Counted from the first letter of the stretch, positions 3,601 through 30,599 are shown. The stretch: 64,000 nucleotides of DNA from an uncultured Chryseobacterium sp. (GCA_964500205.1 CAZCNS010000003.1:62606-126605); one strand, 5' to 3'. The notes: generated by a model from the sequence alone, not told the origin. Program-made: numbers and translations.

Positions 3601-4127
3601 TTGTCGGCATACACCTTCAGGTCGTCCACGCTGTAGTCGCCAGAGAGGTTGATGTTCATGATGGGCAGCTCGCTCAGGTTCACGTCCATCACGATGGGGT
3701 CGATGTCGAGGTCGCTGGGCAGTTCGCTCTTGGCGCGGTCCACGGCATCCTTCACGTCCTGCAAGGCCACCTTCACCTCCACATCGGTGTTGAATTCGAC
3801 CATGATGATGCTGTTGTCCTGCACCGAGGTCGAGGTGAACTTGCTCAGCCCTTTCAGCGGCTTGATCTCCTTCTCCAATGGCCGCGTGATCAGGTTCTCG
3901 ATGTCCACGGGCGAGTTGCCGGGATACACCGTGCGCACGTAGATCTGTGGCAGCACGATCTCCGGGAACAGCTCCTTGGGCATCGTGTTGTAGGCCAGCA
4001 TCCCTCCGAACAGGATGATCACCGTCAGGATGATCACGCTGGTGGCGTTGCGCAGTGCCAATGAGGTGGGCCCGAACTCCTTGACCACGGTGGGGCGGGA
4101 GGGCTTCTGTTGTTGGTCGTCAGACAT
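699..4127 (-). CDS. RND (HAE1/AcrB/CzcA-family) efflux permease, 1142 aa
   Basis: Full-length 12-TM RND architecture with two large periplasmic loops and the family-typical ordering of motifs across both halves. It is the last gene of a four-gene minus-strand operon. Confidence 0.95.
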   Translation of the reverse strand: MSDDQQQKPSRPTVVKEFGPTSLALRNATSVIILTVIILFGGMLAYNTMPKELFPEIVLPQIYVRTVYPGNSPVDIENLITRPLEKEIKPLKGLSKFTSTSVQDNSIIMVEFNTDVEVKVALQDVKDAVDRAKSELPSDLDIDPIVMDVNLSELPIMNINLSGDYSVDDLKVYADKLKDRLELIPEISKADVRGALEREINIIVDLHQMEMRQVSFDDIEQAIAYENMNISGGALLTDGKRRAIRVEGEFRTMDEIANTIVKAEFGNIIYLRDIAQVVDGYAERNSFARLEGKPVVSVDVVKKSGANLLDATDKIMKALAESKRGSFPSDLKVTITNDQSDQVKGQLLNLENSIYSGVILVVAVLFFFLGLRNALFVGIAIPLSMLMSFIILAAMGVTINMIVLFGLILALGMLVDNGIVVIENVYRQLQEGKGVMQAAREGVGEIAIPIITSTLTTLGAFAPLLFWEGVMGEFMGYLPLTLIAVLGSSLFVGLIINPVMAAFFMQDENTEAKTSVKKLWIWTAAFIVLAALLYLGDFRSAGMLAGTMALLIPLNHYVLTPIAKWFQDRALVWLENVYLSILKGSLSSWRPYALFFGSIALLFGSIIMVGIVSPPVEFFPENDPKYINVFIEAAQGTDLEEANELTLAIEEEVFGIIEPYRAAINSVVVNVGEGSSDPMDGAQAGETPNKSKITISFVEFEFREGISSSEVMRRLSADITKRPGVKVNVQKNNEGPPVGKPINIEVSGDDFDKLVVLTEEIRAAVNAENIPGIEGLNLDLETGKPELVVNIDRARARAFGITTGQIGSTLRTALFGKEVSKYKDGEDDYKIVMKLNDDYRYDLTTLLNQKVTFRDMTTGRIKQVPISAVADVSYTTGLGSVKRRDQNRTITIWSNVIEGYNANEINQKIQAKFANYPVPEGFMVRFTGESEEQDKAAAFLGRAFMIAIALILLILVSQFNSAIKPMIILGSVVFSTIGVFIGIATFNMTISVMMTGIGIVSLAGVVVNNAIVLIDYIDLTRARRRSELGMDDNSILPLHEAIACIVEGGRTRLRPVLLTAITTVLGLLPLAVGMNINFYTLASDLDPNIFFGGDNVAFWGPMAWTVIFGLTFATFLTLIIVPVMYLLVEKVRLVFVKDKVVG

Positions 4128-5633: not shown

Positions 5634-6974
5634 TCACTCCTCGAACACCCTGCTCAGTTCCAGCTTTGCATCCAGCGCTGAGAAGAGTTTGTTGATGTAG
5701 TCGGCCTGCGCCTGGGTCAGTTGGTTCTCGGTCTGTGTGAGCTCCATGCTGGTGCTGAGGCCCTCTTTGTACTTCGTGAGGGTGGTGTTGCGCACGCTAC
5801 GTGCCAGCTTGAGCCCTTTCTCCGCATTGGTGAGCTGTTCGAGTGCCGAGGTGAAGTTGTCCTTGCCTGAGATGTGGCGGAGCTTGAGGCCCTGCTCCAC
5901 ATTCCAAAGCTGATCACGCTTGCGCTGCTCCTCCAGTTTGGCCTTCTTGATGGATGCCAGATTGCCGAGGTTGTCCCAGATGGGCACGTTGAGCGATACA
6001 CCCCACAGCGTGAGCGGGAACCAGCGCCCGTTGCTGCCGAAGAAGTTGAACTGCTCACCGAACGCCTGCTGCTGGTAGTTGAAGAAGGTGTTCAGCGAAG
6101 GGAAGTATTTCGATTGCTCGATCTGTGTGAGGTACTTGTGCATCACCACGTCCTGACTCACGAGGTTGTGGTTGATGTTCATGGAAGGCTTGAACTCCCG
6201 GGACAGAAGTTGCTCAGGGTCAGTGGTCTGCCAGAGGGTCTCCAGACCATCGGTCAGCTCAATGGGGGTGCTCACATCCATGCCGATGGTGTATTTGAGC
6301 AGGTTTCTGGCGCCTTCGGTCTGTCGTTCGGCCATGCTGAGCTGGTTCTGCATGGAGGTGACCAGCAGTTCGATCTGCTCCACGTCCAGCAGCTCCGCGA
6401 AACCGTTCTCGTAGAGGGCCTTGGTCTCTTGCAGGGTCTTGTCCAGATTGGCGAGGTTCTCTTTAAGGATGCGGGTGTTCTCCTCCGCCACCAGTGCGGT
6501 GAAGTAGTTCTGCTCGGCCCTTGCCGCGATCTCATAGCCCACCTGCTTGCCCTTTGTGGCCTGCAATTGTTTCAAACCTCGCGCGCCTTTCAGCCCGATG
6601 AGATACGTGCCATTGAACACAGGCATGTTGGCGGAGATGCCCACGTTCATGCCATGCGGCACACCGAACTGCAAGGGTATCGGGTCACTTCCCGGAGGAA
6701 GCCCAGCGAACTCGGGCGGCAGCAGCGTGGTCGGCAGGTCCACGAAGTAGTTGTAGCTCACCTCTCCGTCCACCTTGGGCAGCAGACGTGCTGTGGCCAT
6801 CCAGATGTCCTTGTCGGCCTGCTCGATGTCTATGGCCGCGCCTTTGGCCTCGAAGCTGTGGACCATGGCGTGGGCCTTGGCTTGCTGAAGGCTCAATTGG
6901 ACCACCTGTGCATCCTGAGCAACGACCATGGAGGTCGCAAACAGACAGAGGGCCGCTGTTAGGTTTCTCATCAT
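5634..6974 (-). CDS. TolC-family outer-membrane efflux protein
   Basis: Signal peptide MMRNLTAALCLFATSMVVAQ, two-repeat helical/beta architecture of outer-membrane factors, and operon context with the adaptor and RND genes. Confidence 0.9.
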   Translation of the reverse strand: MMRNLTAALCLFATSMVVAQDAQVVQLSLQQAKAHAMVHSFEAKGAAIDIEQADKDIWMATARLLPKVDGEVSYNYFVDLPTTLLPPEFAGLPPGSDPIPLQFGVPHGMNVGISANMPVFNGTYLIGLKGARGLKQLQATKGKQVGYEIAARAEQNYFTALVAEENTRILKENLANLDKTLQETKALYENGFAELLDVEQIELLVTSMQNQLSMAERQTEGARNLLKYTIGMDVSTPIELTDGLETLWQTTDPEQLLSREFKPSMNINHNLVSQDVVMHKYLTQIEQSKYFPSLNTFFNYQQQAFGEQFNFFGSNGRWFPLTLWGVSLNVPIWDNLGNLASIKKAKLEEQRKRDQLWNVEQGLKLRHISGKDNFTSALEQLTNAEKGLKLARSVRNTTLTKYKEGLSTSMELTQTENQLTQAQADYINKLFSALDAKLELSRVFEE

Positions 6975-7657
6975 CAGAAAATGTTCATTTGTGTGTTGTC
7001 GATGTGTCGGAGCTTCTCTTGCAGGTACGCGATGCCTTTTTCGCTGGCAATGCCGCGTATGTGGTAGCGCATGGTCTCGATATAGACCTGCATGGGGTTG
7101 GTCTCGTTGGGCGGGAACAGCTCCCGGTCGAAGAAGACGTCAATGCGCCCTACGTACATCCCGGAGATGATGCGCGGGTTGAGGTTGTCGCGGTAGAGTC
7201 CCTGCGCCATGCCATCGCGCATGTTGCGCTCGATCACACTGCGGATGGTCTTCTGCTTGAAGTCCTTGAATACGCGGTCTGCCTTGGGGTAGTATTTCTC
7301 CAGGTCGAACAGGATGCTGGGGTGCACATCCTGCAATTGCTGCCCCACCTGCTGCACGATCAGGAACATCTCCTCGATGGCGTTGGGGGCCTCGCTGTGA
7401 ATGCGCTCCACGAGAGCGGCCTCGCGTTCAGCGTGCGAGATCATGGAAAGCTCCACCATCTCCGCCTTGTCCTCAAAGCACTGGTAGAGGGTCTTTTTGC
7501 TGATGCCGAGGTGACGAGCTATGTCGTCCATCGTCAGGCTACGGATGCCGTACTGCATGAACAGGCGCGTGACCTGCTGCAACATTTCCTGACACTTCGG
7601 TTCCATGGGGGCGCAAAAGTAATGCGGAGGGAACGTTGGAAACTTTGAATAGTTCAA
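6974..7657 (-). CDS. TetR/AcrR-family transcriptional regulator (probable true start at MEPKCQEM… about 7609)
   Basis: N-terminal HTH …LFMQYGIRSLTMDDIARHLGISKKTLYQCFEDKAEM… Its stop overlaps the TolC-like start (TGATG), so the regulator is co-transcribed with the pump. Confidence 0.85.
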   Translation of the reverse strand: MNYSKFPTFPPHYFCAPMEPKCQEMLQQVTRLFMQYGIRSLTMDDIARHLGISKKTLYQCFEDKAEMVELSMISHAEREAALVERIHSEAPNAIEEMFLIVQQVGQQLQDVHPSILFDLEKYYPKADRVFKDFKQKTIRSVIERNMRDGMAQGLYRDNLNPRIISGMYVGRIDVFFDRELFPPNETNPMQVYIETMRYHIRGIASEKGIAYLQEKLRHIDNTQMNIF

Positions 7658-21339: not shown

Positions 21340-21560
21340 ATCTCCGACCTGCTTGTCCGTCCGTCCGCCTCAGGCGGACGGACAGGTGGGCGGGCGGGAT
21401 TTTTTTGATTGTTGAGCGAAGCGAAATCCCGCCCAAGCGGGAAGCGAAGCGAAATCCCGCGACTGCGGGAAGATTGCTGATTGCTAATTGCTGATTGACG
21501 AGGGAGGGATTGACAATTAAAAGTTACCAATTACCAATTACCAATTAACAATTGGGGGTG
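21340..21560. repeat. Third locus of the dispersed composite repeat, with a GC hairpin and T-run
   Basis: Hairpin CCGTCCGTCCGCC-TCAG-GCGGACGGACAGG, then GGGCGGGCGGGATTTTTTT, then AGCGAAGCGAAATCCCGC…GCGAAATCCCGCGACTGCGGGA, then (GATTGCT)x3-4 and (CCAATTA)x3. Confidence 0.6.
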
Positions 21561-21665: not shown

Positions 21666-23174
21666 ATGAACTTCGACCAGACCTTCAAGAACATTGATGA
21701 CGTGCTCCGCAGGGAGACCGACTCCGAACTCGACTACATAGAGCAGACCTCGTGGATACTCTTCCTTCGCTACTTGGACGAACTGGAGCAGGAGCGCGCA
21801 GATGAGGCCGAGCTGCGGGGCAACGAATACCGTTTCCTCCTGGCCGAGGAATACCGCTGGGGCGCATGGGCCATGCCCAAGGATGCCAAAGGGGCGTACG
21901 ATTTCAAGTCCGCCCTGACGGGGCCCGACCTCATCGAGTTTGTCAATGGCAAGCTGCTGCCCTACCTGCGCACCTTCAAAGAGGCGCACAGCGACAACCC
22001 CCGCACCCTCGAATACAAGGTGGGCGAGATATTCGGAGAGCTGAAGAACAAGCTGGGCAGCGGCTACAACCTGCGCGAGATACTGGAGGCCATAGACACC
22101 CTGCCCCTCAAGAGCAGCAAGGACCGCCACGAGCTCAGCTTCCTCTACGAGAGCCGCATCCGCAACATGGGCAACGCGGGCCGCAACGGAGGCCAGTACT
22201 ACACCCCCCGCCCCCTCGTGCGCGCCATGATTCAGGTGACCGACCCCCGCATAGGCGAGACCGTCTATGATGGGGCCGCAGGCTCTGCGGGCTTCCTCTG
22301 CGAGGCATACGAGTACATGGCCCCGCAGACCGAGCGCCACCCCACGCTATCAAGCACCGAGGCCCTGCGCGTGCTGCAAGAGGAGACCCTCTATGGCAAG
22401 GAGGTGAAGAACCTCGCCTACATCATCGGCATCATGAACATGATACTGCATGGCGTGGAGGCCCCCAACCTCATCCATATCAACACGCTGGCCGCACACG
22501 ACAGTCAGGTGCAGGAGCGCGACCGCTATGATGTCATCCTCGCCAATCCGCCCTTTGGCAGCAAGGAGCGGCCCGAGGTGCAGCAGGCATTCGCCATCAA
22601 GACCAGCGAGACGGCCTTCCTCTTCCTTGAGCACTTCATCCGCTATCTGAAGACGGGAGGCCGCGCGGCCATCGTCATCAAGAACACCTTTCTGAGTAAC
22701 ACCGACAATGCGGCCGTGAGCCTGCGCAAGCACCTGCTGGAGACCTGCAACCTCCACACCGTGCTCGACATGCCGCAGGGCACCTTCCTCGGGGCGGGCG
22801 TCAAGACCGTCATCCTCTTCTTCACCAAGGGCGAGCCTACCCGCAACATCTGGTACTACCAGCTGAACCCCGGCCGCAACATGGGCAAGACCAACCCCCT
22901 CAACGACAGCGACCTGGCCGAGTTCATCGAACTCCAGAAGACCCGCCCAGAGACCGAGTGCAGTTGGAAAGTTGGGGTCACTTCGAGTGACGCTGACGAA
23001 GGAGGCGTTGTATCGAGAAGCCCCAACGCCACCAACGGCTTCGACCTCTCCGTAAAGAACCCCAACACCCCCGAAGAGGCACCCCTGCGCAGCCCACAGG
23101 AGATACTGGACGAGATGACCGCCTTGGACGAAGAGACCAAGGAACTGTTGGACGGGATAAGGGAGTTGCTATGA
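21666..23174 (+). CDS. hsdM: Type I restriction-modification N6-adenine DNA methyltransferase subunit
   Basis: HsdM N-terminal domain and catalytic motif IV NPPF (…VILANPPFGSKERPE…). It overlaps the specificity subunit by ATGA. Confidence 0.95.
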   Translation: MNFDQTFKNIDDVLRRETDSELDYIEQTSWILFLRYLDELEQERADEAELRGNEYRFLLAEEYRWGAWAMPKDAKGAYDFKSALTGPDLIEFVNGKLLPYLRTFKEAHSDNPRTLEYKVGEIFGELKNKLGSGYNLREILEAIDTLPLKSSKDRHELSFLYESRIRNMGNAGRNGGQYYTPRPLVRAMIQVTDPRIGETVYDGAAGSAGFLCEAYEYMAPQTERHPTLSSTEALRVLQEETLYGKEVKNLAYIIGIMNMILHGVEAPNLIHINTLAAHDSQVQERDRYDVILANPPFGSKERPEVQQAFAIKTSETAFLFLEHFIRYLKTGGRAAIVIKNTFLSNTDNAAVSLRKHLLETCNLHTVLDMPQGTFLGAGVKTVILFFTKGEPTRNIWYYQLNPGRNMGKTNPLNDSDLAEFIELQKTRPETECSWKVGVTSSDADEGGVVSRSPNATNGFDLSVKNPNTPEEAPLRSPQEILDEMTALDEETKELLDGIRELL

Positions 23175-24322
23175 GTACTAACAAATGGACTCCATTCCGA
23201 AATGTCGGAAATGTTCAGTCGGGAGCTGGATTTCCAATTGTTTATCAAGGCCTAACGGAAGGTGAATACCCCTTCTACAAGGTTGGAGACATGAATTCAG
23301 AAGGCAACGAGATATTCATGTCTCAAGCCAACCATTACATATCTGATGAAGTTCGCAGGGAACTTGGAGCTAAAGTAATTCCACCAGACAGTATAATCTT
23401 CCCCAAAGTTGGCGGGGCCATATTGACTAACAAAAAAAGGATTACAACTCTTCCATGCTGTATTGACAACAACTTGATGTCAATCTGGGTCGACCCAGCA
23501 GCATATTCCAAAAAGTACTTCTACTATTTCTTCAATTCGATTGATTTATTTGAGTTGTCTAATAAAGCTGGGTTGCCATCAATTACGCAAACAGCTCTTT
23601 ACGAACTGAAAGTTCCCATCCCACCCCTCCCCGAACAGGAGCGCATCGTTGCCAAGTTGGATGCCGCCTTTGCGGCCATCGATAAGGCCAAGGCCAATGT
23701 GGAGCGCAACCTGCACAATGCCAAGGAGCTTTTTCAGAGCAAGCTCAATGAGGTGTTTGAAAATTTGGAATCACAATATGAAAGGACTCCTATAGCTTCT
23801 GTTTGCAAAGAGATATTTGCTGGAGGTGATGCCCCACGTGAAAACTTCTCCGAAGCCAGAACAGATAAATTTCACATTCCAATAATTGCCAATGCCGTTA
23901 AAGACCATGGTCTTTACGGATATACAGATTTGGTGAGAGTTTCGGAGCCATCAATTACCATAGCAGCACGCGGAAGTGGTACTGGACATACTGAAATCAG
24001 GTTGGAGCCATTTTTCCCAATTGTCAGGTTAATTGTCCTGATTCCAAAGAGGGAGATGATTGACCTTTCCTTTTTCTGTTACTCAATCAAAAATTTGGAG
24101 ATTTTGAGAAGCGGTTCTGCAATACCGCAGTTGACTGTGCCCATGATTAAAGGTTACTCGCTTGCTGTGCCACCTTTGGAAACTCAAGAAGTGTTAGTTG
24201 AAATGCTTAACTCGTTGGAGGGCAGTTTGCAGTCCCTTGAAACCTATTATACCCGCAAACTAACAGAATTGGAAACCTTGAAGAAGTCGGTTTTGGAGCG
24301 GGCTTTTAGGGGGGAGATTTGA
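23171..24322 (+). CDS. hsdS: Type I R-M specificity subunit (two target-recognition domains)
   Basis: AT-rich variable TRDs separated by the conserved central helix (…LPPLPEQERIVAKLDAAFAAIDKAKANVERNLHNAKELFQSKLNEVF…), and the conserved distal helix …LETQEVLVEMLNSLEGSLQSLETYYTRKLTELETLKKSVLERAFRGEI*. Confidence 0.9.
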   Translation: MSTNKWTPFRNVGNVQSGAGFPIVYQGLTEGEYPFYKVGDMNSEGNEIFMSQANHYISDEVRRELGAKVIPPDSIIFPKVGGAILTNKKRITTLPCCIDNNLMSIWVDPAAYSKKYFYYFFNSIDLFELSNKAGLPSITQTALYELKVPIPPLPEQERIVAKLDAAFAAIDKAKANVERNLHNAKELFQSKLNEVFENLESQYERTPIASVCKEIFAGGDAPRENFSEARTDKFHIPIIANAVKDHGLYGYTDLVRVSEPSITIAARGSGTGHTEIRLEPFFPIVRLIVLIPKREMIDLSFFCYSIKNLEILRSGSAIPQLTVPMIKGYSLAVPPLETQEVLVEMLNSLEGSLQSLETYYTRKLTELETLKKSVLERAFRGEI

Positions 24323-24359: not shown

Positions 24360-24463
24360 TGTGGGACACGTAGGACATAGCGTGGGACGTGGCGGAGTGG
24401 GAGCCTCCATCGTGCAGTTCCACGGAGCGTCCCAAGCGTCCCACAGCAAATAGCCCACAGCCT
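24360..24463. mobile_element. MITE/PATE-like about 100-bp element, copy A (terminal inverted repeats TGTGGGAC…GTCCCACA)
   Basis: GTGGGACACGTAGGACATAGCGTGGGACGTGGCGGAGTGG … CACGGAGCGTCCCAAGCGTCCCACAGC. Arms are mutually complementary (CGTGGGACG vs CGTCCCACG). Near-identical copies lie at 24543-24640 and 26324-26433. Confidence 0.5.
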
Positions 24464-24524
24464 CAAACTAACAGAATTGGAAACCTTGAAGTAGTCGGTT
24501 TTGGAGCGGGCTTTTAGGGGGGAG
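24464..24524 (+). pseudogene. Orphan duplicate of the hsdS 3' end (…KLTELETLK*SVLERAFRGEL), copy 2 of 3
   Basis: A roughly 60-bp direct repeat of 24262-24322 with an internal stop (TAG). A third copy at 24653-24716 runs into the KAP NTPase reading frame. Confidence 0.6.
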
Positions 24525-24542
24525 CTATGAAAATAAAAATGG

Positions 24543-24640
24543 AGGACACGTAGGGCATAGCGTGGGAAGTGGCGGAGTGGTGGTCACCATCGTGCAGTCC
24601 CACGGAACGTCCCAAGCGTCCCACAGCATGAAGCCCACAG
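24543..24640. mobile_element. MITE/PATE-like element, copy B
   Basis: GGACACGTAGGGCATAGCGTGGGAAGTGGCGGAGTGG…CACGGAACGTCCCAAGCGTCCCACAGC. Confidence 0.5.
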
Positions 24641-24736
24641 CAAACCCACTACACCCGCAAACTAACAGAACTTGAAACCTTGAAGAAGTCGGTTTTGGAG
24701 CGGGCTTGTAGGGGGGGATATGAAACAGGAAGCGAT

Positions 24737-26116
24737 ATGAAAGGAAGACACAATGACTTGATAATCGACCTCAATGAACCTTTCAAAGAGTGCAAACTCA
24801 ATCGAAAGCGGAATGCGGAGATTCTAACCGAGGTGGTGCAGAGGTACAAGGATGGTTTTGTCCTTGCGATAAACAACCCTTGGGGTGCGGGTAAGACCAC
24901 CTTCGTGAAGATGTGGCAGCAGCACTTGGAGAATGAACATTTCCGTACCGTCTATTTTAACGCTTGGGAGAACGACCTTGGCAATGCCATTTTCCCTGCC
25001 CTGCTCTCTGAATTGGAAGGAATTGACCGCGCACATAGAGATGGCGAGAATCAACAGAATCCAAGGTTTGCTGACGTATTAGACAAGGCCGCCCCGATTG
25101 CAAAATCTTTAATGCCCGCAGTGGCAAAGATTCTGTTTGACAGATTTGCAGGCAAGGGTGCTGCATCGGAACTAGCAGAGGCAATTGCAGCGGGTGGTGC
25201 AGAGGTACTGGCAGAAGGCATCAAAGACTACAGGGCACAAAAGCAAGGACTTGGTGAGTTCAAAAAATCGCTAACCGAGTTTGTGGAGACCTACACTTCT
25301 TATGGCAGGCCCATCATCTTCATTATAGACGAGCTTGACCGCTGCCGTCCCGACTATGCGGTCTCCGTGCTAGAACACATCAAGCACCTTTTCTCTATAC
25401 GCAGAGTAGTTTTCGTGCTTTCCATAGACAAGGTGCAATTGGGTCACGCCATTTGTGGGGTGTATGGCAGTGACAACTTCGATTCCAATGAGTACTTGAG
25501 AAGGTTTATTGATTTGGAGTACAATCTGCCCGTTCCGAACTACACTGAAATCACGAAATACTTTTTCAACTACTTCGGATTTGAAGATGTTGCATTGCTA
25601 AAAAACAAACCAAATGCATGGTTTTCTGATGAGGAACTGTTTGACTTTATGGGGCAACGCTTCAGACATCTGAATTGGAATATTCGAAGAATAGAGAAAC
25701 TGATGGCACGCTGCAGAGTTACCATGAGTCTTGTTGCACCAGATGAATTTCATCTCATGCCGTTCTACTTGTACCTATCTTTCCTTTACGAATTAGATGG
25801 TGAATTCGCTGGCAAGCTGACATCCGGTAAACTCACTATTACAGAAGTCAACTCCAAATTGAAGAGTCCTGAACTGCTGTTTGGGGCGAGTTTTGAAGCA
25901 CCATTTTGGCAGAAGTGCTTCGCATTTATTTTATTATCTATATCCGATAATTTTACTGACATCTCGAAACTAAATCCAATAAATGCTATCAAACAACAAC
26001 CGCTATCTGCGTTTTCTTCAGTTGTACATGCGGGATCATATGGTCAGCTATCGCTTCCCGGAATAGTTGAAATAGGCAGGAGGTTAAGACATTCCTATAG
26101 TTTTGAAGCAGCTTAA
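24737..26116 (+). CDS. KAP-family P-loop NTPase inserted between hsdS and hsdR (ORF in track begins at TTG 24680 inside the hsdS-end repeat; ATG at 24737 preferred)
   Basis: Walker A NNPWGAGKTTFVKMW, the KAP-typical YFNAWEND motif, and Walker B IIFIIDELDRCRPDY. AT-rich relative to hsdM and hsdR. Confidence 0.85.
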   Translation: MKGRHNDLIIDLNEPFKECKLNRKRNAEILTEVVQRYKDGFVLAINNPWGAGKTTFVKMWQQHLENEHFRTVYFNAWENDLGNAIFPALLSELEGIDRAHRDGENQQNPRFADVLDKAAPIAKSLMPAVAKILFDRFAGKGAASELAEAIAAGGAEVLAEGIKDYRAQKQGLGEFKKSLTEFVETYTSYGRPIIFIIDELDRCRPDYAVSVLEHIKHLFSIRRVVFVLSIDKVQLGHAICGVYGSDNFDSNEYLRRFIDLEYNLPVPNYTEITKYFFNYFGFEDVALLKNKPNAWFSDEELFDFMGQRFRHLNWNIRRIEKLMARCRVTMSLVAPDEFHLMPFYLYLSFLYELDGEFAGKLTSGKLTITEVNSKLKSPELLFGASFEAPFWQKCFAFILLSISDNFTDISKLNPINAIKQQPLSAFSSVVHAGSYGQLSLPGIVEIGRRLRHSYSFEAA

Positions 26117-26118
26117 TC

Positions 26119-26178
26119 AATGAACGAATCCGAAACCCGCGCCCATTTCATCGCCCCCGCCCTGATAGCCAAGGGATA
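26119..26178 (+). pseudogene. Truncated, diverged copy of the hsdR 5' end (MNESETRAHFIAPALIAKG*)
   Basis: 20 codons, about 80% identical to the true hsdR start at 27077 (VNESNTRAHYIDPALIAKGW…), with TAG where hsdR has TGG. Confidence 0.5.
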
Positions 26179-26323
26179 GGGGCTAATAACAGCCATTGAA
26201 CCGAGCGGTTGAAAACCCCTTTCAGGAGGGCAGCATGTTCAGGTTCCGCTGTTCCACGGCACGGCCCATAAACCCCACAGAAAACCCCACCCGTAGAAAC
26301 CATGGCGCACTCACCGTCTTTTT

Positions 26324-26433
26324 TGTGGGACACGTAGGACATGACGTGGGACGTGGCGGAGTGGCAAGCACCTTCGGCCGTCCTGCGGAGCGTCCCATGC
26401 AGTCCCACAAGTCCCACAGCACAAAGCCCACAG
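26324..26433. mobile_element. MITE/PATE-like element, copy C
   Basis: TGTGGGACACGTAGGACATGACGTGGGACGTGGCGGAGTGG…GGAGCGTCCCATGCAGTCCCACAAGTCCCACAGC. Confidence 0.5.
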
Positions 26434-26462
26434 AACATCCAACCAACCTAACATATTGACAA

Positions 26463-27047
26463 TTGCACTACATTAGCCCCATGGCAACGGAGAATCCAGG
26501 CGGTTTTATCCCAAAGAATGGGGGTTATAGAAACCTCTATGCCTTCCAGAAGGCCGAGATCATTTATGATGGCACGGTCTATTTCACCAAACGGTTCTTC
26601 GGGAAATACGACCGCACTGTAGATCAGATGGTGCAGGCTGCCCGCAGCGGCAAGCAGAACATAGGCGAGGGCAGCGTGGTATCGGCCACCTCCAAACAGT
26701 TGGAGATCAACCTGACCAACGTGGCCCGCGCCAGCTTGGAAGAACTCAAGATGGACTACGAGGATTTCCTGCGCACCAACAAGCTGCCCATCTGGGACAA
26801 GAACCACCGCCTTGCCCTGCGGGTGCGCGAATTGAACCGTACGCCCAATGCCGATTACAGTACTTTTCAGAAGGCCATAGAGCACGAGAGCCCTGAGATC
26901 TGTGCCAACACGCTGCTCACCCTCATCAACATCGCCATTTACCTGCTCAAGAACCAGTTGGCCACCCTCGAAAAGGAGTTCCTTGAAGAAGGGGGTATCC
27001 GCGAACGAATGACCCGCGCCCGCATTGCCAAACGCAAGGGCGGGTAG
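26463..27047 (+). CDS. Four-helix-bundle protein (23S rRNA intervening-sequence protein / Avd-like family) with a C-terminal extension; alternative start MATENPGG at 26481
   Basis: YRNLYAFQKAEIIYDGTVYFTKRF…DRTVDQMVQAARSGKQNIGEGS…KQLEINLTNVARASLEEL matches the family hallmark (…W/FQKA…L…IY…T…FP…E…L…Q…RAA.SI..NIAEG…F…A.GSL.EL). It sits between a MITE-like copy and hsdR. Confidence 0.65.
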   Translation: MHYISPMATENPGGFIPKNGGYRNLYAFQKAEIIYDGTVYFTKRFFGKYDRTVDQMVQAARSGKQNIGEGSVVSATSKQLEINLTNVARASLEELKMDYEDFLRTNKLPIWDKNHRLALRVRELNRTPNADYSTFQKAIEHESPEICANTLLTLINIAIYLLKNQLATLEKEFLEEGGIRERMTRARIAKRKGG

Positions 27048-27076: not shown

Positions 27077-29620
27077 GTGAACGAATCCAACACCCGCGCG
27101 CATTACATAGACCCTGCCCTTATAGCCAAGGGATGGGGTTTCAATGCGCCCATGAACGAAGGACGCATACGCACGGAGCATTTCATCACCAATGGCCGCA
27201 TATTGGGCCAGAGCGTAGGCAGCAAGCGATCGAAGGATGGGCTGATACACGGTGAGCGGCTCAAGGCCGACTATGTACTGCAATACCGCAACCGCAACAT
27301 TGGTATTATAGAGGCCAAGGCTGATACGCAGGACTTCACCGAAGGCGTGGGGCAGGCCAAGGAGTACGCCACCCGCCTACAGGTGCGCTTTGCCTTTAGC
27401 ACCAATGGCAAACGCATCTATTGCATCGACATGCAGGAGGGCACCGAGAGCGAGGTGCGCGAATACCCCACACCCGATGAGCTGTGGGCCATGACGTTTG
27501 ACGCAGATTCGGAGTGTCACACTAAGCGGAGTCGAAGTGCAAACGAGGAATCTGGGGCTTCCAACGGACTCCATCCCGAATCTTCGGGACTCAGAATGAC
27601 ACCCCCCGACCACGGCATCAACTGGATGGAACGGTTCAGCGCAGTGCCCTTCGAGGACCGTGGCGGCACATGGCAGCCGCGCTACTATCAGGAGAACGCC
27701 ATCACCAACGCCCTCGATGCCATGGCCGAGGGCCGTGACCGCATCCTGCTCACCCTCGCCACCGGCACAGGCAAGACGGCCATCGCCTTTCAGATATGCT
27801 GGAAGCTGTATCAAAGCCGTTGGAACCTGAGGCGCGATGGCAGCGGCCTGCCGCGCATCCTTTTCCTGGCCGACCGCAACGTGCTGGCCGATCAGGCATT
27901 CAATGCGTTTAACCTCTCTTTTGAGGAGAACGCACTGGTGCGCATCACCCCCGAGGAGATACGCAAGGCAGGCAAGGTGCCGACCAGCGGAAGCCTGTTC
28001 TTCACCATCTTCCAGACCTTCATGACAGGCGGCAATACCGATGCAGGCGAGACCGAGGACATGGAAGCGGGCAAGGCCCATTTCTGGGGCTACCCGAAGG
28101 ACTTCTTCGACCTTATCATCATTGACGAGTGCCACCGTGCAGGGGCGAAGGACAACAGCTCATGGCGGGCCATCATGGAGTATTTCAAGCCTGCGGTGCA
28201 GATAGGTCTCACCGCCACGCCCAAGCGCGATGTGAATGGCGACACCTACCGCTATTTCGGTGACCCCGTGTATGTCTATTCGCTCAAAGAAGGCATCAAC
28301 GATGGTTTCCTCACGCCTTTCCGCTACAAGGAGATGAGCACCACGGGGGATGAGTACACCTACACCGAGGGCGACATCGTGATGGAAGGAGAGGTGGAAT
28401 ATGGCCGCACTTACACGCAGGAGGAACAGAACCGTGTAATCATCCTGGAGGATGTAGAGCGTTTTCGTGTGCAGAAGCTGCTCGAAAGCATAGACCAGCG
28501 GCACAAGACCATCGTGTTTTGCAATGACCAGCTGCACGCCCTCGCGGTGCGCAACCTCATCAATCAGCTCTCAACCAGTCGCAACCCGCACTACTGCCAC
28601 CGTGTCACGGCAGACGATGGCAAGCAGGGCGAACAGTACCTCAAGCACTTTCAGGACAACCAGAGCAGCATCCCCACAATCCTTACCACCTCGCAGAAAC
28701 TGAGCACGGGTGTGGACGCACCAGAGGTGCGCAACATCGTGCTGATGCGCGTGGTGCGCAGCATGGTGGAGTTCAAGCAGATCATAGGGCGCGGCACACG
28801 CCTTCATGATGGCAAGAGCTACTTCACGGTCTATGATTTCTATTGGCGGTTACACACCCACTTCGAGGATCCCGAATGGGACGGCCCGCCCGAAGAGCCT
28901 GAACCCCCAGTGGAACGGCCGTTGACCGACCCTTGTCTGAACTGTGGTCAGAGGCGCTGCATCTGCAACCAGCCTCCGCCAGAGCTGTGCGAACTCTGCG
29001 CCAAACATCCCTGCGAGTGCGAAGGCGAACCACGCCCCAAGAAGATACGCATCAAGATGGCCGATGGCAGCGTGCGTGATCTGCAGGGCATGACCCGCAC
29101 CAGATACTACGGCAAGAATGGACAGCTTGTGACGGGCGATGCCTTCATTCAGGAACTCTTTGGCGACCTGCCTTCCTTCTTCTCCGATGAGGAGAAACTA
29201 AGGGAGATATGGAGCACGCCCGACACCCGCAGGAAACTGCTGGAAGAGATGAAGGAGAAGGGCTACAGCGAGGAACAGCTCAAGGAATTGCAAGAGCTGG
29301 TGCATGGCCGCGACAGCGACCTGTATGATGTGCTCTCCTACGTGGCCTATCACCGCGACCTTGTGCCGCGCTCCGACCGCGCAGACCGCGCCAAGGTGCA
29401 TTTCGCCACCTACGACCCCAAGCAGCAGGAGTTCCTCAACTTCGTGCTGGAGCAGTACGTGCGTTCAGGCGTCCACGAACTGGACGACCAGAAACTGCCC
29501 CAGCTCCTCGACCTCAAATACAAGAGCGTGGCCGATGCCAAGGCGCAGCTTGGCTCTCCTAACACCATTCGAGACACCTTCATCGGCTTTCAGAAATGGC
29601 TGTATGGGGAGGTGGGGTAG
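27077..29620 (+). CDS. hsdR: Type I restriction enzyme R subunit (GTG start), with a Cys-rich C-terminal insert
   Basis: N-terminal NESNTRAHYIDPAL. SF2 helicase motifs LTLATGTGKT, IIIDECHRAG, GLTATP, QIIGRGTRL. C-terminal DUF3387-like region. CxxC x4 cluster CLNCGQRRCICNQ…CELCAKHPCEC. Confidence 0.95.
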   Translation: MNESNTRAHYIDPALIAKGWGFNAPMNEGRIRTEHFITNGRILGQSVGSKRSKDGLIHGERLKADYVLQYRNRNIGIIEAKADTQDFTEGVGQAKEYATRLQVRFAFSTNGKRIYCIDMQEGTESEVREYPTPDELWAMTFDADSECHTKRSRSANEESGASNGLHPESSGLRMTPPDHGINWMERFSAVPFEDRGGTWQPRYYQENAITNALDAMAEGRDRILLTLATGTGKTAIAFQICWKLYQSRWNLRRDGSGLPRILFLADRNVLADQAFNAFNLSFEENALVRITPEEIRKAGKVPTSGSLFFTIFQTFMTGGNTDAGETEDMEAGKAHFWGYPKDFFDLIIIDECHRAGAKDNSSWRAIMEYFKPAVQIGLTATPKRDVNGDTYRYFGDPVYVYSLKEGINDGFLTPFRYKEMSTTGDEYTYTEGDIVMEGEVEYGRTYTQEEQNRVIILEDVERFRVQKLLESIDQRHKTIVFCNDQLHALAVRNLINQLSTSRNPHYCHRVTADDGKQGEQYLKHFQDNQSSIPTILTTSQKLSTGVDAPEVRNIVLMRVVRSMVEFKQIIGRGTRLHDGKSYFTVYDFYWRLHTHFEDPEWDGPPEEPEPPVERPLTDPCLNCGQRRCICNQPPPELCELCAKHPCECEGEPRPKKIRIKMADGSVRDLQGMTRTRYYGKNGQLVTGDAFIQELFGDLPSFFSDEEKLREIWSTPDTRRKLLEEMKEKGYSEEQLKELQELVHGRDSDLYDVLSYVAYHRDLVPRSDRADRAKVHFATYDPKQQEFLNFVLEQYVRSGVHELDDQKLPQLLDLKYKSVADAKAQLGSPNTIRDTFIGFQKWLYGEVG

Positions 29621-29775
29621 AGATAACCCCCGAAGCCCCTGAGCATGTCTATTGCATCCCCTTGGAGGCCATGAAGGGCAACACCCTCACCTTCGAGGAT
29701 GTGCGCCCCTGTTGGAAGAAGATCGCGGAGCGCACTGCCTTCTATTGGGACAGTGAGAGCCGCACGTTGCGGTAG

Positions 29776-29795
29776 AGACGCGATGCATCGCGTCT
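29776..29795. terminator. Perfect 20-bp palindrome AGACGCGATGCATCGCGTCT between convergent hsdR and aroE (candidate bidirectional terminator or protein site)
   Basis: Self-complementary sequence seen directly. A second imperfect inverted repeat TGCAACGC…GCGGTTGCA follows. GGTAGAGACGC occurs twice (29771 and 29821). Confidence 0.3.
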
Positions 29796-29834
29796 GTGCA
29801 ACGCGGATGATGCGGTTGCAGGTAGAGACGCTAT

Positions 29835-30599
29835 TCACCCGCCATTGCGCGAGGGTTCAACCCCGTTCCAGATCTCCCAGCTGGCATCGGCCTGGAGATG
29901 CAGCATGTCGAGTCCGTTGCGCACGGTGGCACCACGCTCCAGCCCTGTGCGCATGAATGCGGTCTCCAACGGATTGTACACCATGTCAAACAGCAGGTGG
30001 TCGGGTGTGATGGCTCCGTAGGGCAGGTCAGGTCGGTCGTTCACGTTCGGGTACATACCTAAGGGGGTGCAGTTCACCACAATGGTATGGTCGCGCATCA
30101 TCTGCATGGAGAGGTTGGGGTAGTCCACGTCACCAGAGTCAGGGTCGCGCGACACGACCGTGCATTCCAAACCCAATCCCGATAGCACATGCAAGGCAGC
30201 CTTGGCCACGCCTCCTGTGCCCAGGATCATCGCACTGCTGTGATGCTCAGCGACCAATGGCGCGATGCTCTGCCGGAAGCCGGTCACATCCGTGTTGTAG
30301 CCCTTCAAGCAGACCTTGCCGCAGGAGCGGTCTATGCGGACGGTGTTCACCGCGTGGATCTCCCGCGCCTCATCATCCATCTGGTCCAGGTGCTTGATGA
30401 TGGCCGTCTTGAACGGGATGGTCACGTTCACGCCCATGAGCAAAGGGTCGTTGCGCATGGCGTCCAAGGCATCGGTCAGCTTGGCGAAATCGAGGTTCAC
30501 GTACTCGTCCTCGATGCCGAGGTCTTTGAACTTCGCTTCAAAATATCCCTTGCTGAAAGAATGACCGAGCGGATGCCCGATCAGGCCGAAGCGTCTCAT
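29835..30599 (-). CDS. aroE: Shikimate 5-dehydrogenase
   Basis: N-terminal …FGLIGHPLGHSFSKGYF… substrate-binding motif and a C-terminal Rossmann domain (…ILGTGGVAKAAL…). Confidence 0.9.
   Translation of the reverse strand: MRRFGLIGHPLGHSFSKGYFEAKFKDLGIEDEYVNLDFAKLTDALDAMRNDPLLMGVNVTIPFKTAIIKHLDQMDDEAREIHAVNTVRIDRSCGKVCLKGYNTDVTGFRQSIAPLVAEHHSSAMILGTGGVAKAALHVLSGLGLECTVVSRDPDSGDVDYPNLSMQMMRDHTIVVNCTPLGMYPNVNDRPDLPYGAITPDHLLFDMVYNPLETAFMRTGLERGATVRNGLDMLHLQADASWEIWNGVEPSRNGG

What the first reader, a model, noticed from the sequence alone, without database searches (positions are those of the whole stretch)
24360..26433. A roughly 100-bp MITE/PATE-like element with TGTGGGAC…GTCCCACA inverted termini, three copies, all inside the R-M locus
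Copies at 24360-24463, 24543-24640 and 26324-26433 share GTGGGACACGTAGG(A/G)CAT(A/G)(G/A)CGTGGGA(C/A)GTGGCGGAGTGG, a 15-25 nt variable centre, then C(C/A)CGGA(G/A)CGTCCCA(A/T)GC(G/A)GTCCCACA(G/A)C, then AGCCCACAG. The two arms can pair (CGTGGGACG with CGTCCCACG) into a long imperfect hairpin, as in IS200/IS605-derived palindrome-associated elements or structured small RNAs. Each copy sits immediately next to a gene-end duplication, so the element may be what mobilises cargo into this locus. An RNA role (e.g. antisense regulation of hsdS/hsdR ends) is also possible.
Basis: seen in the sequence. Interest (0 to 1): 0.55.

Follow-up and report, generated by a model that had tools for sequence, protein, structure and literature searches.

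The report
Hairpin repeats partnering a four-helix-bundle gene
The three roughly 100-base repeats are real, but they are not jumping mini-transposons: they are copies of a hairpin-forming "GGAC-heptad" element that travels with a small four-helix-bundle gene, a relative of genes found inside ribosomal-RNA intervening sequences, lodged in a restriction-modification operon of a Bacteroidota bacterium.

Summary
**Observation:** confirmed. There are three + strand copies (E1 24360-24463, E2 24540-24641, E3 26324-26433) and one truncated right arm (26248-26291). Each copy has three GT(G/A)GGAC heptads followed by three or four inverted GTCCCA(C/A) heptads, and can fold into a 20-22 bp interrupted hairpin.

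**Interpretation as a MITE/PATE:** not supported.
- A covariance model finds no copy outside the R-M locus, in this window or in about 124 kb of related DNA.
- Whole-collection scans found only sister R-M loci.
- There are no target-site duplications.
- Copy number changes by segmental or tandem duplication: a 194-208 nt unit here, and a 129 nt unit in 1, 2 or 3 copies in sister contigs.
- Cargo cassettes in sister loci are bounded by hsdS-end and hsdR-start copies without E.

**What it is:** E accompanies the "four helix bundle suffix" gene (PF05635/S23p fold; window 26481-27047). Homologous or analogous sense-strand heptad arrays or hairpins flank this gene in all ten loci I could read, inside and outside R-M operons.

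**Closest known:** 23S rRNA intervening sequences that carry S23p ORFs. They have an RNase III-cut stem and variable heptamer repeats upstream of the ORF.

**Mechanism (inferred):** a cis element on the sense transcript, acting as a dsRNA processing or protein-binding site. Covariation does not prove pairing.

The parts
24360..24463 (+). E1: heptad hairpin element. It has 3 GT(G/A)GGAC heptads, a variable centre, 3 GTCCCA heptads and a CA-rich tail. It is an orphan copy with no 4HB gene behind it.
   Evidence: dG -44.2, z -2.2; 105.5 bits
24540..24641 (+). E2: second orphan copy. Its left terminus has decayed to TGGAGGAC.
   Evidence: z -0.85; 94.6 bits
26248..26291 (+). Truncated E: right arm and tail only.
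   Evidence: family D3 (73% to the E1 right arm)
26324..26433 (+). E3: variant with 4 right-arm heptads. The hairpin ends 64 nt upstream of the 4HB start codon. It is the copy in the conserved position.
   Evidence: dG -52.6, z -3.8; 80.1 bits. Same position in L005, L002, L006 and L007.
26481..27047 (+). Four-helix-bundle suffix protein gene (188 aa), the gene the element belongs with.
   Evidence: PF05635 E 4e-6. TIGR04258 E 3e-22 and TIGR02436. AF2 model pLDDT 73.6. Best PDB folds are 2rld and 2gsc, the S23 family.
21666..23174 (+). hsdM (type I methyltransferase).
23171..24322 (+). hsdS (specificity subunit). Its last ~80 nt are the repeated 'hsdS-end'.
24461..24539 (+). hsdS 3' end copy 1. 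Together with E2 it forms the second tandem unit.
   Evidence: family D2 (92%)
24655..24733 (+). hsdS 3' end copy 2, the left border of the KAP cassette.
   Evidence: family D2 (82%)
24737..26116 (+). KAP-family P-loop NTPase cargo gene.
   Evidence: PF07693 E 3e-36. Weak QatA-like match.
26121..26181 (+). hsdR 5' start copy, the right border of the KAP cassette.
   Evidence: family D5 (85%)
27077..29620 (+). hsdR (restriction subunit).

Best explanation
**What it is (shown).** E is the cis-acting companion of the 'four helix bundle suffix' gene, which has the S23p/Avd-like fold. It is not an independent mobile element. E consists of 3-4 sense-strand (G/A)GGAC heptads at 9-12 nt spacing, usually followed by the inverted GTCC heptads.

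The native arrangement in this R-M lineage is hsdM-hsdS-E-4HB-hsdR, and E3 is that copy. E1 and E2 are orphan copies. They arose when a unit of [last ~80 nt of hsdS + E] was duplicated by unequal recombination between hsdS-end repeats. The same process changes E copy number (1, 2 or 3) in sister populations.

**How it works (inferred).** E is read on the sense transcript of the hsd operon, and there are two ways it could act.
- The two arms pair into a 20-22 bp interrupted dsRNA helix. That would be a processing or stability signal, probably an RNase III substrate, as in 23S rRNA intervening sequences that carry homologous ORFs. It would separate the hsdM-hsdS/cargo message from the 4HB-hsdR message.
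- The GGAC heptads are recognised by the oligomeric, basic-tailed 4HB protein, giving autoregulation or RNP formation.

**Confidence.** About 0.75 for the identity part (companion of the 4HB gene, amplified locally, not a MITE) and about 0.3 for the RNA-level mechanism. The figure given is for the whole statement.
For: **Locus specificity.** Model R1 finds E only in the hsdS-hsdR interval of the window and of sister loci.

**Conserved position.** E lies 63-66 nt upstream of the 4HB ATG in the window, L005 (4HB 98% identical), and L002/L006/L007 (92%). E identity between the window and L002 is about 75-77%, which equals the flanking coding DNA at 72-78%.

**Association beyond this lineage.** Every readable locus with a 4HB-suffix gene has the element or an analogue on the gene's sense strand.
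- L136-141: hsdS-4HB-E-hsdR, 29.5 bits, E 7e-6. It shares the 18-mer AGTCCCACAAGTCCCACA with E3.
- L133-135: 4 x AAGGACA upstream and 3 x GTCnTT downstream.
- L008: a downstream hairpin, z -3.1.
- L010: TGGGACTTGTGGGACAT, identical to L002a, lies upstream, with a second left arm downstream.
- L009: 3 x GACA heptads upstream.
- L132, a viral contig with a 46% identical 4HB: GGTCGGACAGAGTCGGAC on both sides of the gene.
- Prevotella nigrescens (49% identical): two heptad hairpins, z -5.7.

**Specificity of the motif.** Triple G[GA]AC clusters in 143 kb fall almost only in these elements.

**Duplication mode.** A 129 nt tandem unit is present in 2.7 copies at 97% in L002, with 2 copies in L006 and 1 in L007, on flanks that are 95-99% identical. 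The window units are 208 and 194 nt, each hsdS-end + E.

**Literature analogue.** The Coxiella burnetii 23S IVS carries an S23p ORF, a 28 bp terminal stem cut by RNase III, and 2-3 strain-variable heptamers (GACAGAT) just upstream of the ORF (PMC4990558).

**Signals.** There is no intrinsic-terminator or sigma-70 promoter signal at E.
Against: - **No covariation.** About 88-90% of cells pair, but only 0-2 double-sided changes occur, no better than shuffles. G-to-A changes in left heptads give A.C mismatches. Sequence rather than pairing is conserved, so pairing is not demonstrated.
- **The better-folding strand is inconsistent.** The - strand folds better in L136 and the + strand in L133.
- **Hairpin not universal.** Some loci have only direct heptads with a weak or absent inverted arm (L010, L132, L133; z about 0 for L010).
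- **Position and presence vary.** E lies upstream of the gene in some loci and downstream in others. No locus I read lacked a heptad array, so whether the array is dispensable could not be tested. The tight 17 nt hsdS-4HB junction in L136 shows only that it need not lie upstream.
- **No direct data.** There is no expression, RNase III or protein-binding evidence.
- **E1 and E2 have no 4HB gene next to them.** If they function, it is without the partner in cis.
- **Incomplete search.** The source genome outside the 64 kb window was not searchable.
Confidence: 0.45

Rival explanations
1. **DNA-level operator or iteron array.** The heptads are double-stranded binding sites, 3 direct plus 3 inverted, for a DNA-binding protein. 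That protein could be the 4HB-suffix protein or an unlinked regulator, and it would control transcription of 4HB-hsdR. The hairpin potential would then be a by-product of site symmetry.
For: - Sequence rather than pairing is conserved: GGAC and GTCCC are invariant and there is no covariation.
- The 9-12 nt spacing is close to one helical turn.
- The same 3+3 layout occurs as probable origin iterons next to a primase-helicase-like ORF in viral contigs.
- A type I R-M island in E. coli is repressed through three direct repeats bound by RptR (PMC12255303).
Against: - No recognisable DNA-binding regulator is encoded nearby.
- No promoter-like signal adjoins E, although Bacteroidota promoters are not modelled by that scan.
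- The element lies downstream of the gene in L136, L008 and Prevotella.
- Heptad strand polarity relative to the gene is constant in every locus, which a symmetric operator would not require.
- Spacing varies from 7 to 12 nt across loci.
Confidence: 0.2
2. **Functionless relic.** E is the decaying scar or terminal structure left by insertion of the selfish 4HB gene. It is kept only by linkage and amplified by unequal crossing-over.
For: - Copy number varies freely (1-3) among close relatives.
- Orphan copies, a truncated copy and a decayed E2 terminus exist.
- The right arm has decayed in L010 and L133.
Against: - E is as conserved as the adjacent coding DNA between the window and L002.
- The GGAC heptad motif is retained next to 4HB genes that are only 46-49% identical, in different phylogenetic and genomic contexts. 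This is hard to explain without selection.
Confidence: 0.15
3. **MITE/REPIN/PATE.** E is a non-autonomous palindromic element mobilised in trans by an IS200/IS605-type Y1 transposase or RAYT, and it helps bring cargo into the locus.
For: - It has 8 bp inverted termini ending TGT...ACA and a long hairpin.
- An IS200-like tnpA sits as a cassette in the sister locus L006 (PF01797 E 4.5e-24, NF033573). One of its flanking hairpins contains GTCCCAACGGGAC.
Against: - No copies occur outside the R-M interval.
- Two genome-collection scans found nothing, and the metagenome scan found only same-locus contigs.
- There are no target-site duplications.
- The duplicated units are larger than E.
- The E arms are not themselves short palindromes, as REPs are.
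- The tnpA flanks score nothing with the E model.
- The window has no Y1 transposase.
- The Prevotella analogue is unique in a complete 568 kb replicon.
Confidence: 0.07
4. **Recombination site.** E is either an attC-like cassette boundary or a recombinogenic palindrome that causes the neighbouring gene-end duplications.
For: - The layout resembles an array: E - short insert - E - KAP cassette - E - 4HB.
- Like attC, E is an imperfect palindrome built of 7 nt boxes with a variable centre.
- Long palindromes are known to promote template switching (general knowledge).
Against: - In L002 and L006 five cargo cassettes are bounded by hsdS-end and hsdR-start copies and none by E.
- There are no GTTRRRY/RYYYAAC core sites.
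- No integrase or other recombinase is encoded in the window.
- Tandem E copies in L002 are 'empty'.
Confidence: 0.08
5. **Protein-coding repeat.** E encodes a peptide; JGI called a 150 aa ORF across the three tandem copies in L002.
For: One frame (GTG GGA C..) is open through E in E1, E3 and all L002 copies, and the 129 nt period is divisible by 3.
Against: - The same frame has an in-frame TAG in the L005 copy.
- E1 and E2 have no start context and stop in the tail.
- ORFs 26196-26459 and 26148-26438 have no Pfam match.
- An open frame of 30-43 codons in GC-rich palindromic DNA is expected by chance.
Confidence: 0.02

Closest known systems
23S rRNA intervening sequences (IVS) carrying an S23p/PF05635 ORF (Coxiella burnetii, Leptospira, Brucella, Xanthomonas-type S23p)
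   Same: - The gene next to E belongs to the same protein family and fold.
- IVSs have inverted termini forming a long stem cut by RNase III.
- The Coxiella IVS has 2-3 tandem heptamers (GACAGAT) immediately upstream of the ORF, with strain-to-strain copy-number variation (PMC4990558). This parallels the GGAC(A) heptads and the 1-3 copy variation seen here.
- In L133 the gene lies between a left-arm heptad array and right-arm heptads, which resembles an ORF-in-loop layout.
   Different: - E is not in an rRNA gene. The window has no rRNA (Rfam), and E sits in a type I R-M mRNA operon or other protein-coding neighbourhoods.
- In most loci the complete hairpin lies beside the ORF, not around it.
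- The heptads are spaced 9-12 nt apart and are not contiguous.
- The protein carries an extra C-terminal 'suffix' domain (TIGR04258).
- RNase III cleavage has not been tested.
REP/REPIN elements and their RAYT (Y1, IS200-like) transposases; IS200/IS605 PATEs
   Same: - E is an extragenic imperfect palindrome of about 90-100 nt that can form a long hairpin.
- A GTAG tetranucleotide occurs in some heptads.
- An IS200-like Y1 transposase flanked by inverted short hairpins exists in a sister locus.
   Different: - E is not dispersed.
- Its arms are not self-palindromic REP units.
- The transposase's own flanks are unrelated to E.
- E amplifies by segmental tandem duplication, not by insertion.
Integron attC sites
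   Same: E is an imperfect palindrome of 60-140 nt made of 7 nt boxes with a variable centre, lying between promoter-less, co-oriented genes.
   Different: - The R'/R'' core consensus is absent.
- No integrase is present.
- Cassettes in sister loci are delimited by hsdS-end and hsdR-start homology, not by E.
Direct-repeat operators of R-M-linked regulators (RptR in an E. coli type I R-M/DarTG island) and iteron arrays of P4-like origins
   Same: Three short repeats at about one-turn spacing in a type I R-M locus (PMC12255303), and 3+3 inverted heptad/nonamer arrays in viral contigs.
   Different: - There is no RptR-like or replication gene here.
- The motifs are different: TAGCTA and TGTCCCAG, against GTGGGAC.
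- E keeps a fixed strand polarity relative to the 4HB gene, and it can lie downstream of that gene.

Membership tests
MITE | Terminal inverted repeats | tested here: met
   TGTGGGAC...GTCCCACA in E1 and E3, decayed in E2.
MITE | Target-site duplication flanking each copy | tested here: not met
   The flanks are CTCTT|..|GCAAA (E1), AAAAA|..|GCATG (E2) and TTTTT|..|GCACA (E3). There is no direct repeat, and a conserved tail follows the right terminus.
MITE | Multiple dispersed copies in unrelated genomic sites | tested here: not met
   The model finds copies only in the hsdS-hsdR interval. Collection scans gave 0, 0 and 2 same-locus contigs. The complete source genome was not available.
REP/REPIN-RAYT or IS200/IS605 PATE | Cognate Y1 (HUH) transposase whose flanking hairpins match the element | tested here: not met
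   The window has none. The L006 tnpA is flanked by different hairpins, and the E model finds nothing there at E up to 10.
REP/REPIN-RAYT or IS200/IS605 PATE | Unit made of two inverted short palindromic REPs; tens to hundreds of extragenic copies | tested here: not met
   The arms consist of direct heptads with no internal palindrome, and the element is not dispersed.
23S rRNA intervening sequence (IVS) | Located within a 23S rRNA gene (helix 25 or 45) | tested here: not met
   Rfam finds no rRNA in the window. E lies between hsdS and a protein-coding gene.
23S rRNA intervening sequence (IVS) | Inverted termini forming a long stem | tested here: met
   Folds of -37 to -53 kcal/mol, z down to -3.8. 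Analogues reach z -3.1 to -5.7 on the sense strand (-6.1 for the L136 - strand).
23S rRNA intervening sequence (IVS) | Association with an S23p/PF05635 ORF | tested here: met
   The ORF is adjacent to the hairpin rather than inside the loop, except partly in L133.
23S rRNA intervening sequence (IVS) | Excision or cleavage by RNase III | not testable with these tools
   Needs RNA end mapping or an in vitro cleavage assay.
Integron attC | R''/L''...L'/R' boxes with a GTTRRRY core, and an IntI integrase | tested here: not met
   The boxes are GTGGGAC/GTCCCAC. No integrase was found among the window ORFs.
Structured RNA supported by covariation | Compensatory base changes that maintain the pairs | tested here: inconclusive
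   0 of 20 pairs (7 sequences) and 2 of 18 pairs (10 sequences) show double-sided changes, no better than shuffles. There is no Rfam family.
Intrinsic terminator | GC-rich hairpin followed by a U tract | tested here: not met
   The tail is CA-rich, and the scan reports no terminator at E.

The most novel reading that the evidence does not exclude
The four-helix-bundle (S23p/Avd-like) suffix gene and its GGAC-heptad hairpin together form a previously unrecognised class of small selfish 'operon-intervening' elements in Bacteroidota. The 4HB oligomer would specifically recognise the heptads, on RNA or single-stranded DNA, to drive RNA excision or processing, or the element's own spread. These elements would preferentially colonise type I R-M operons. 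If true, this gives the first cis target, and so the first testable function, for the S23p/IVS protein family outside diversity-generating retroelements.
Probability: 0.17. Interest if true: 0.8.

Novelty: new variant of a known kind. Interest (0 to 1): 0.5.

Why it matters
PF05635/S23p four-helix-bundle proteins are very abundant. More than 8,000 close relatives of this protein scored E <= 1e-10, and a sample of 26 are about 70% identical to it. Since their discovery in 23S rRNA intervening sequences they have had no known function outside diversity-generating retroelements, where the homologue Avd is a nucleic-acid-binding partner of the reverse transcriptase.

A conserved cis element of sense-strand GGAC heptads, often arranged as a hairpin, that follows the gene into different contexts gives a concrete ligand candidate. 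It can be tested directly by protein-RNA or protein-DNA binding and by RNase III cleavage.

It would also bear on how Bacteroidota type I R-M operons separate methylase expression from nuclease expression. For annotation, it flags spurious ORF calls across these repeats.

The neighbouring observation may be of independent interest for defence-island evolution: cargo genes in these loci are bounded by copies of the hsdS 3' end and the hsdR 5' start.

Tried and rejected
- **Rfam.** Neither the gathering search nor the permissive search found a family. The only hit at E3 was a chance mir-662 match at 20 bits.
- **Strict left-arm pattern.** It found 0 matches in the genome collection and 0 in the metagenome collection.
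- **Exact-protein look-ups.** KAP, hsdS and hsdM are not on record. A housekeeping neighbour gave only a 5.7 kb Logan contig ending at the R-M border.
- **Viral contigs.**
  - The relaxed E pattern gave one chance hit in GC-rich coding DNA.
  - A triple-GTCCCA pattern gave at least 120 hits. Judging from the two I examined, these are collagen-like 9 nt coding repeats or origin iterons, not E.
  - The 4HB protein gave no hit and the 4HB alignment gave one.
- **Covariation.** Two alignments with a hand-drawn three-stem structure showed no signal beyond sequence conservation. RNAalifold chose a different register because the heptads are near-identical.
- **Strand inference.** G.U versus A.C mismatches and +/- fold energies gave contradictory answers between loci.
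- **Bacteroidota-type promoter (TTTG ... TAnnTTTG) between E and the 4HB ATG.** By eye there is only a one-mismatch -7 box (TACATTAG) with no correctly spaced -33 box, so this was not pursued. The sigma-70 and terminator scan was negative at E.
- **Homology between window 26182-26323 and the IS200 flanks of L006.** Only a 10-mer matched, at E 0.34.
- **Coding hypothesis for E.** Rejected because of the stop codon in the L005 copy.
- **Plasmid and phage collections.** They held only one further 4HB-suffix locus, in Prevotella.
Full report
**1. The observation**

The region 24360-26433 contains three + strand copies of an approximately 100 nt element, which I call E.
- E1 is at 24360-24463, E2 at 24540-24641 and E3 at 26324-26433.
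- A 24 nt left-arm pattern matches exactly three times in the 64 kb window, against zero in 100 shuffles.
- A truncated fourth copy, right arm only, lies at 26248-26291 (family D3).

Each copy has three GT(G/A)GGAC heptads with starts 10 and 12 nt apart, then a 25-30 nt variable centre. Next come three inverted GTCCCA(C/A) heptads (four in E3), and last a CA-rich tail, GCAnnAAGCCCACAG.

As + strand RNA the copies fold at -44.2, -36.9 and -52.6 kcal/mol, with z = -2.2, -0.85 and -3.8.

**2. Surroundings**

The host is a Bacteroidota bacterium. The window encodes type IX secretion proteins PorP/SprF and CHU_C, Por_Secre_tail and SprB repeat proteins.

The locus reads as follows:
- hsdM 21666-23174
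- hsdS 23171-24322
- E1
- a copy of the last ~80 nt of hsdS (24461-24539)
- E2
- a second hsdS-end copy (24655-24733)
- a KAP-family NTPase (24737-26116)
- a copy of the first 60 nt of hsdR (26121-26181)
- the truncated E
- E3
- a 188 aa 'four helix bundle suffix' protein (26481-27047; PF05635, TIGR04258, TIGR02436)
- hsdR 27077-29620

No transposase or integrase is encoded among the large ORFs of the window.

**3. Is it a dispersed mobile element? No.**
- A covariance model built from seven copies, run with filters off, finds only the three copies in the window.
- In about 124 kb of related loci it finds only copies in the equivalent R-M interval or beside the 4HB gene.
- Two patterns scanned over one genome from each of 185,579 species found nothing.
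- A pattern that fits all seven known copies found only two metagenome contigs, L006 and L007. Both are the same R-M locus type. No other contig from those samples carried it, which argues against many copies per genome.
- There are no target-site duplications.

The copies multiply as parts of larger units.
- In the window the unit is [hsdS-end + E], 208 and 194 nt long.
- In sister loci the unit is 129 nt, hairpin plus tail plus spacer. It occurs 3 times in L002-L004, 2 times in L006 and once in L007, on flanks that are 95-99% identical.

This is unequal crossing-over, not transposition.

**4. Is it the cargo-mobilising site? No.**
- In L002 and L006, five cargo cassettes lie between hsdS and hsdR: paralogous 124-132 aa ORFs, a 165 aa ORF, and an IS200-like tnpA.
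- All are bounded by hsdS-end or hsdR-start copies, and none by E.
- The hsdS-end copies are 85-93% identical between the window and L002. hsdM is 78% and hsdR about 73%. The homology at the cassette borders, not E, is therefore the likely recombination substrate.
- The IS200-like gene (PF01797 E 4.5e-24; NF033573) is flanked by its own nested inverted hairpins (GTCCCAACGGGAC / GCCCCGTTGGGGC; CCCTGAAAGGG / CCCTTTCAGGG). These are unrelated to E by the model.

**5. What E goes with**

In the window, L005 (4HB 98% identical) and L002/L006/L007 (92%), E ends 63-66 nt before the ATG of the 4HB-suffix gene. E is about as conserved (75-77%) as the flanking genes.

The decisive finding is that other 4HB-suffix genes carry the same kind of element, always with the GGAC-type heptads on the gene's sense strand.
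- **L136-141** (4HB 75% identical; order hsdS-4HB-E-hsdR). A shorter E lies directly after the stop codon, at 29.5 bits, E 7e-6, z -4.7. It shares AGTCCCACAAGTCCCACA with E3.
- **L133-135** (order hsdR-4HB-hsdM). Four AAGGACA repeats and a weak right arm lie upstream, and three GTCnTT heptads lie downstream, so the ORF sits partly between the arms.
- **L008** (next to ribonucleotide reductase). A downstream hairpin with changed but still complementary arms (GAGAC/GUUUC, AACAUU/AGUGUU), z -3.1.
- **L010** (next to a peptidase). The 17-mer TGGGACTTGTGGGACAT, identical to L002a, lies upstream, and a second left arm lies downstream.
- **L009.** Three GACA heptads and one GTCCC lie upstream.
- **L132**, a viral contig with a 46% identical 4HB. 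GGTCGGACAGAGTCGGAC occurs both 60 nt upstream and 424 nt downstream.
- **Prevotella nigrescens NZ_CP082843** (49% identical). Two hairpins of GGGAT/TAGGAA heptads lie just downstream, z -5.7. Hairpin 1 is unique in that complete 568 kb replicon.

A scan for three G[GA]AC motifs 5-8 nt apart over 143 kb returns 21 clusters, and all but about five lie in these elements.

The 4HB-suffix family is very large and highly conserved. 7,999 relatives scored E <= 1e-10 among the 8,000 candidates scored, and a sample of 26 aligns at about 70% identity. Its AlphaFold model (pLDDT 73.6) matches the S23-family bundles 2rld and 2gsc best.

**6. Comparison with what is known**

The closest described system is the 23S rRNA intervening sequence with an S23p ORF. 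In Coxiella burnetii the IVS has a 28 bp terminal stem cut by RNase III. Just upstream of the S23p start it has two or three tandem heptamers (GACAGAT), and their number varies among strains (PMC4990558).

E shares four things with this system:
- the gene family;
- the stem;
- the heptamer repeats containing GAC(A);
- the copy-number variation.

E is not a member. It is not in an rRNA gene, the hairpin usually lies beside the ORF rather than around it, and RNase III cleavage is untested.

REP/REPIN-RAYT, MITE and attC memberships each fail at least one tested defining feature, as listed in the membership table.

**7. Mechanism**

Shown:
- E is a locus-specific companion of the 4HB-suffix gene.
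- Its strand polarity relative to that gene is fixed.
- It is amplified by local duplication.

Inferred: E acts on the sense transcript, either as a 20-22 bp interrupted dsRNA helix or as an array of GGAC sites for the 4HB oligomer, whose suffix is a basic helix (GG-I/L-RERMT-K/R-AR). As a dsRNA helix it would be an RNase III-type processing or stability signal separating the hsdMS/cargo message from the 4HB-hsdR message.

Evidence against pairing being the selected feature:
- Covariation is absent: 0 of 20 and 2 of 18 pairs show double-sided changes, no better than shuffles.
- Some loci keep only the direct heptads.
- The better-folding strand differs between loci.

A DNA-level operator role (20%) and a functionless relic (15%) therefore remain serious rivals.

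**8. Verdict**

- The MITE/PATE and cargo-mobiliser readings are not supported.
- The element is best described as an IVS-like heptad hairpin belonging to the four-helix-bundle suffix gene module. This is a new variant of a known kind.
- Interest is moderate. It offers the first candidate cis target for a very abundant protein family of unknown function, but the functional claims are inferences from about ten loci.

Noticed in passing
window 24461-24539, 24655-24733, 26121-26181; L002 9090-9140, 9563-9586; L006 8529-8475, 7952-7908, 7912-7858, 7470-7416: Cargo genes between hsdS and hsdR are organised as cassettes bounded by copies of the hsdS 3' end and the hsdR 5' start. In L006 an hsdR-start copy abuts an hsdS-end copy, as expected for stacked [hsdS-end - cargo - hsdR-start] units. 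The hsdS-end copies are 85-93% identical between lineages whose hsdM and hsdR are only 73-78% identical. This suggests homology-driven cassette exchange between type I R-M loci.
   Followed up: partly
L006 6819-7271 (- strand) and flanks 6700-7420: An IS200-like Y1 transposase (150 aa; PF01797, NF033573) sits as one such cassette. It is flanked by nested inverted short hairpins (GTCCCAACGGGAC / GCCCCGTTGGGGC and CCCTGAAAGGG / CCCTTTCAGGG). This is a RAYT-like arrangement, unrelated to E by the covariance model.
   Followed up: partly
window 24737-26116: The cargo gene is a KAP-family P-loop NTPase (PF07693 E 3e-36) with a weak resemblance to the Qat anti-phage ATPase QatA (E 6e-13, far below the family cut-off). 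It may be a defence gene embedded in the R-M operon.
   Followed up: no
L002 8702-9079 and 9149-9547; L006 7479-7853: Paralogous small ORFs (124-132 aa, starting MEKKL/MEEKL, no Pfam or NCBIfam match) each sit about 12 nt after an hsdS-end copy. They are duplicated in L002 and single in L006/L007.
   Followed up: no
L002 9544-9996; window 26196-26459: ORFs are called or open across the E repeats (150 aa in the JGI annotation). They are probably spurious, because the same frame carries a TAG in the L005 copy.
   Followed up: yes
L136 3583-3658: The annotated hsdR start (3583) overlaps the E hairpin. The conserved hsdR start ATGAACGAAACTGAAACC is at 3659, so the gene call is probably about 25 codons too long.
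   Followed up: partly
L014 3399-3535; L015 1-110 (IMG/VR contigs): Sets of three 9 nt repeats (TGTCCCAG, or GTGGGACAG) occur in inverted orientation about 90 nt apart, next to an 842 aa ORF that I take, from reading its translation, to be primase-helicase-like. They are probably origin iterons of P4-like elements. They share the 3+3 layout of E but are not homologous to it.
   Followed up: partly
window 21415-21470: Two tandem 28 nt units (AGCGAAGCGAAATCCCGC...GCGGGA), each containing a small hairpin, lie about 200 nt upstream of hsdM. They follow a GC-rich palindrome (CCGTCCGCCTCAGGCGGACGG) and a T-run.
   Followed up: no
L001 5743-5387 = window 29644-30000: A 5.7 kb Logan contig that is 100% identical to the window over the 357 nt it overlaps my comparison region (window 29644-30000) ends 24 nt after the hsdR stop codon. 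This suggests the R-M locus is variable or absent in that sample's population.
   Followed up: no
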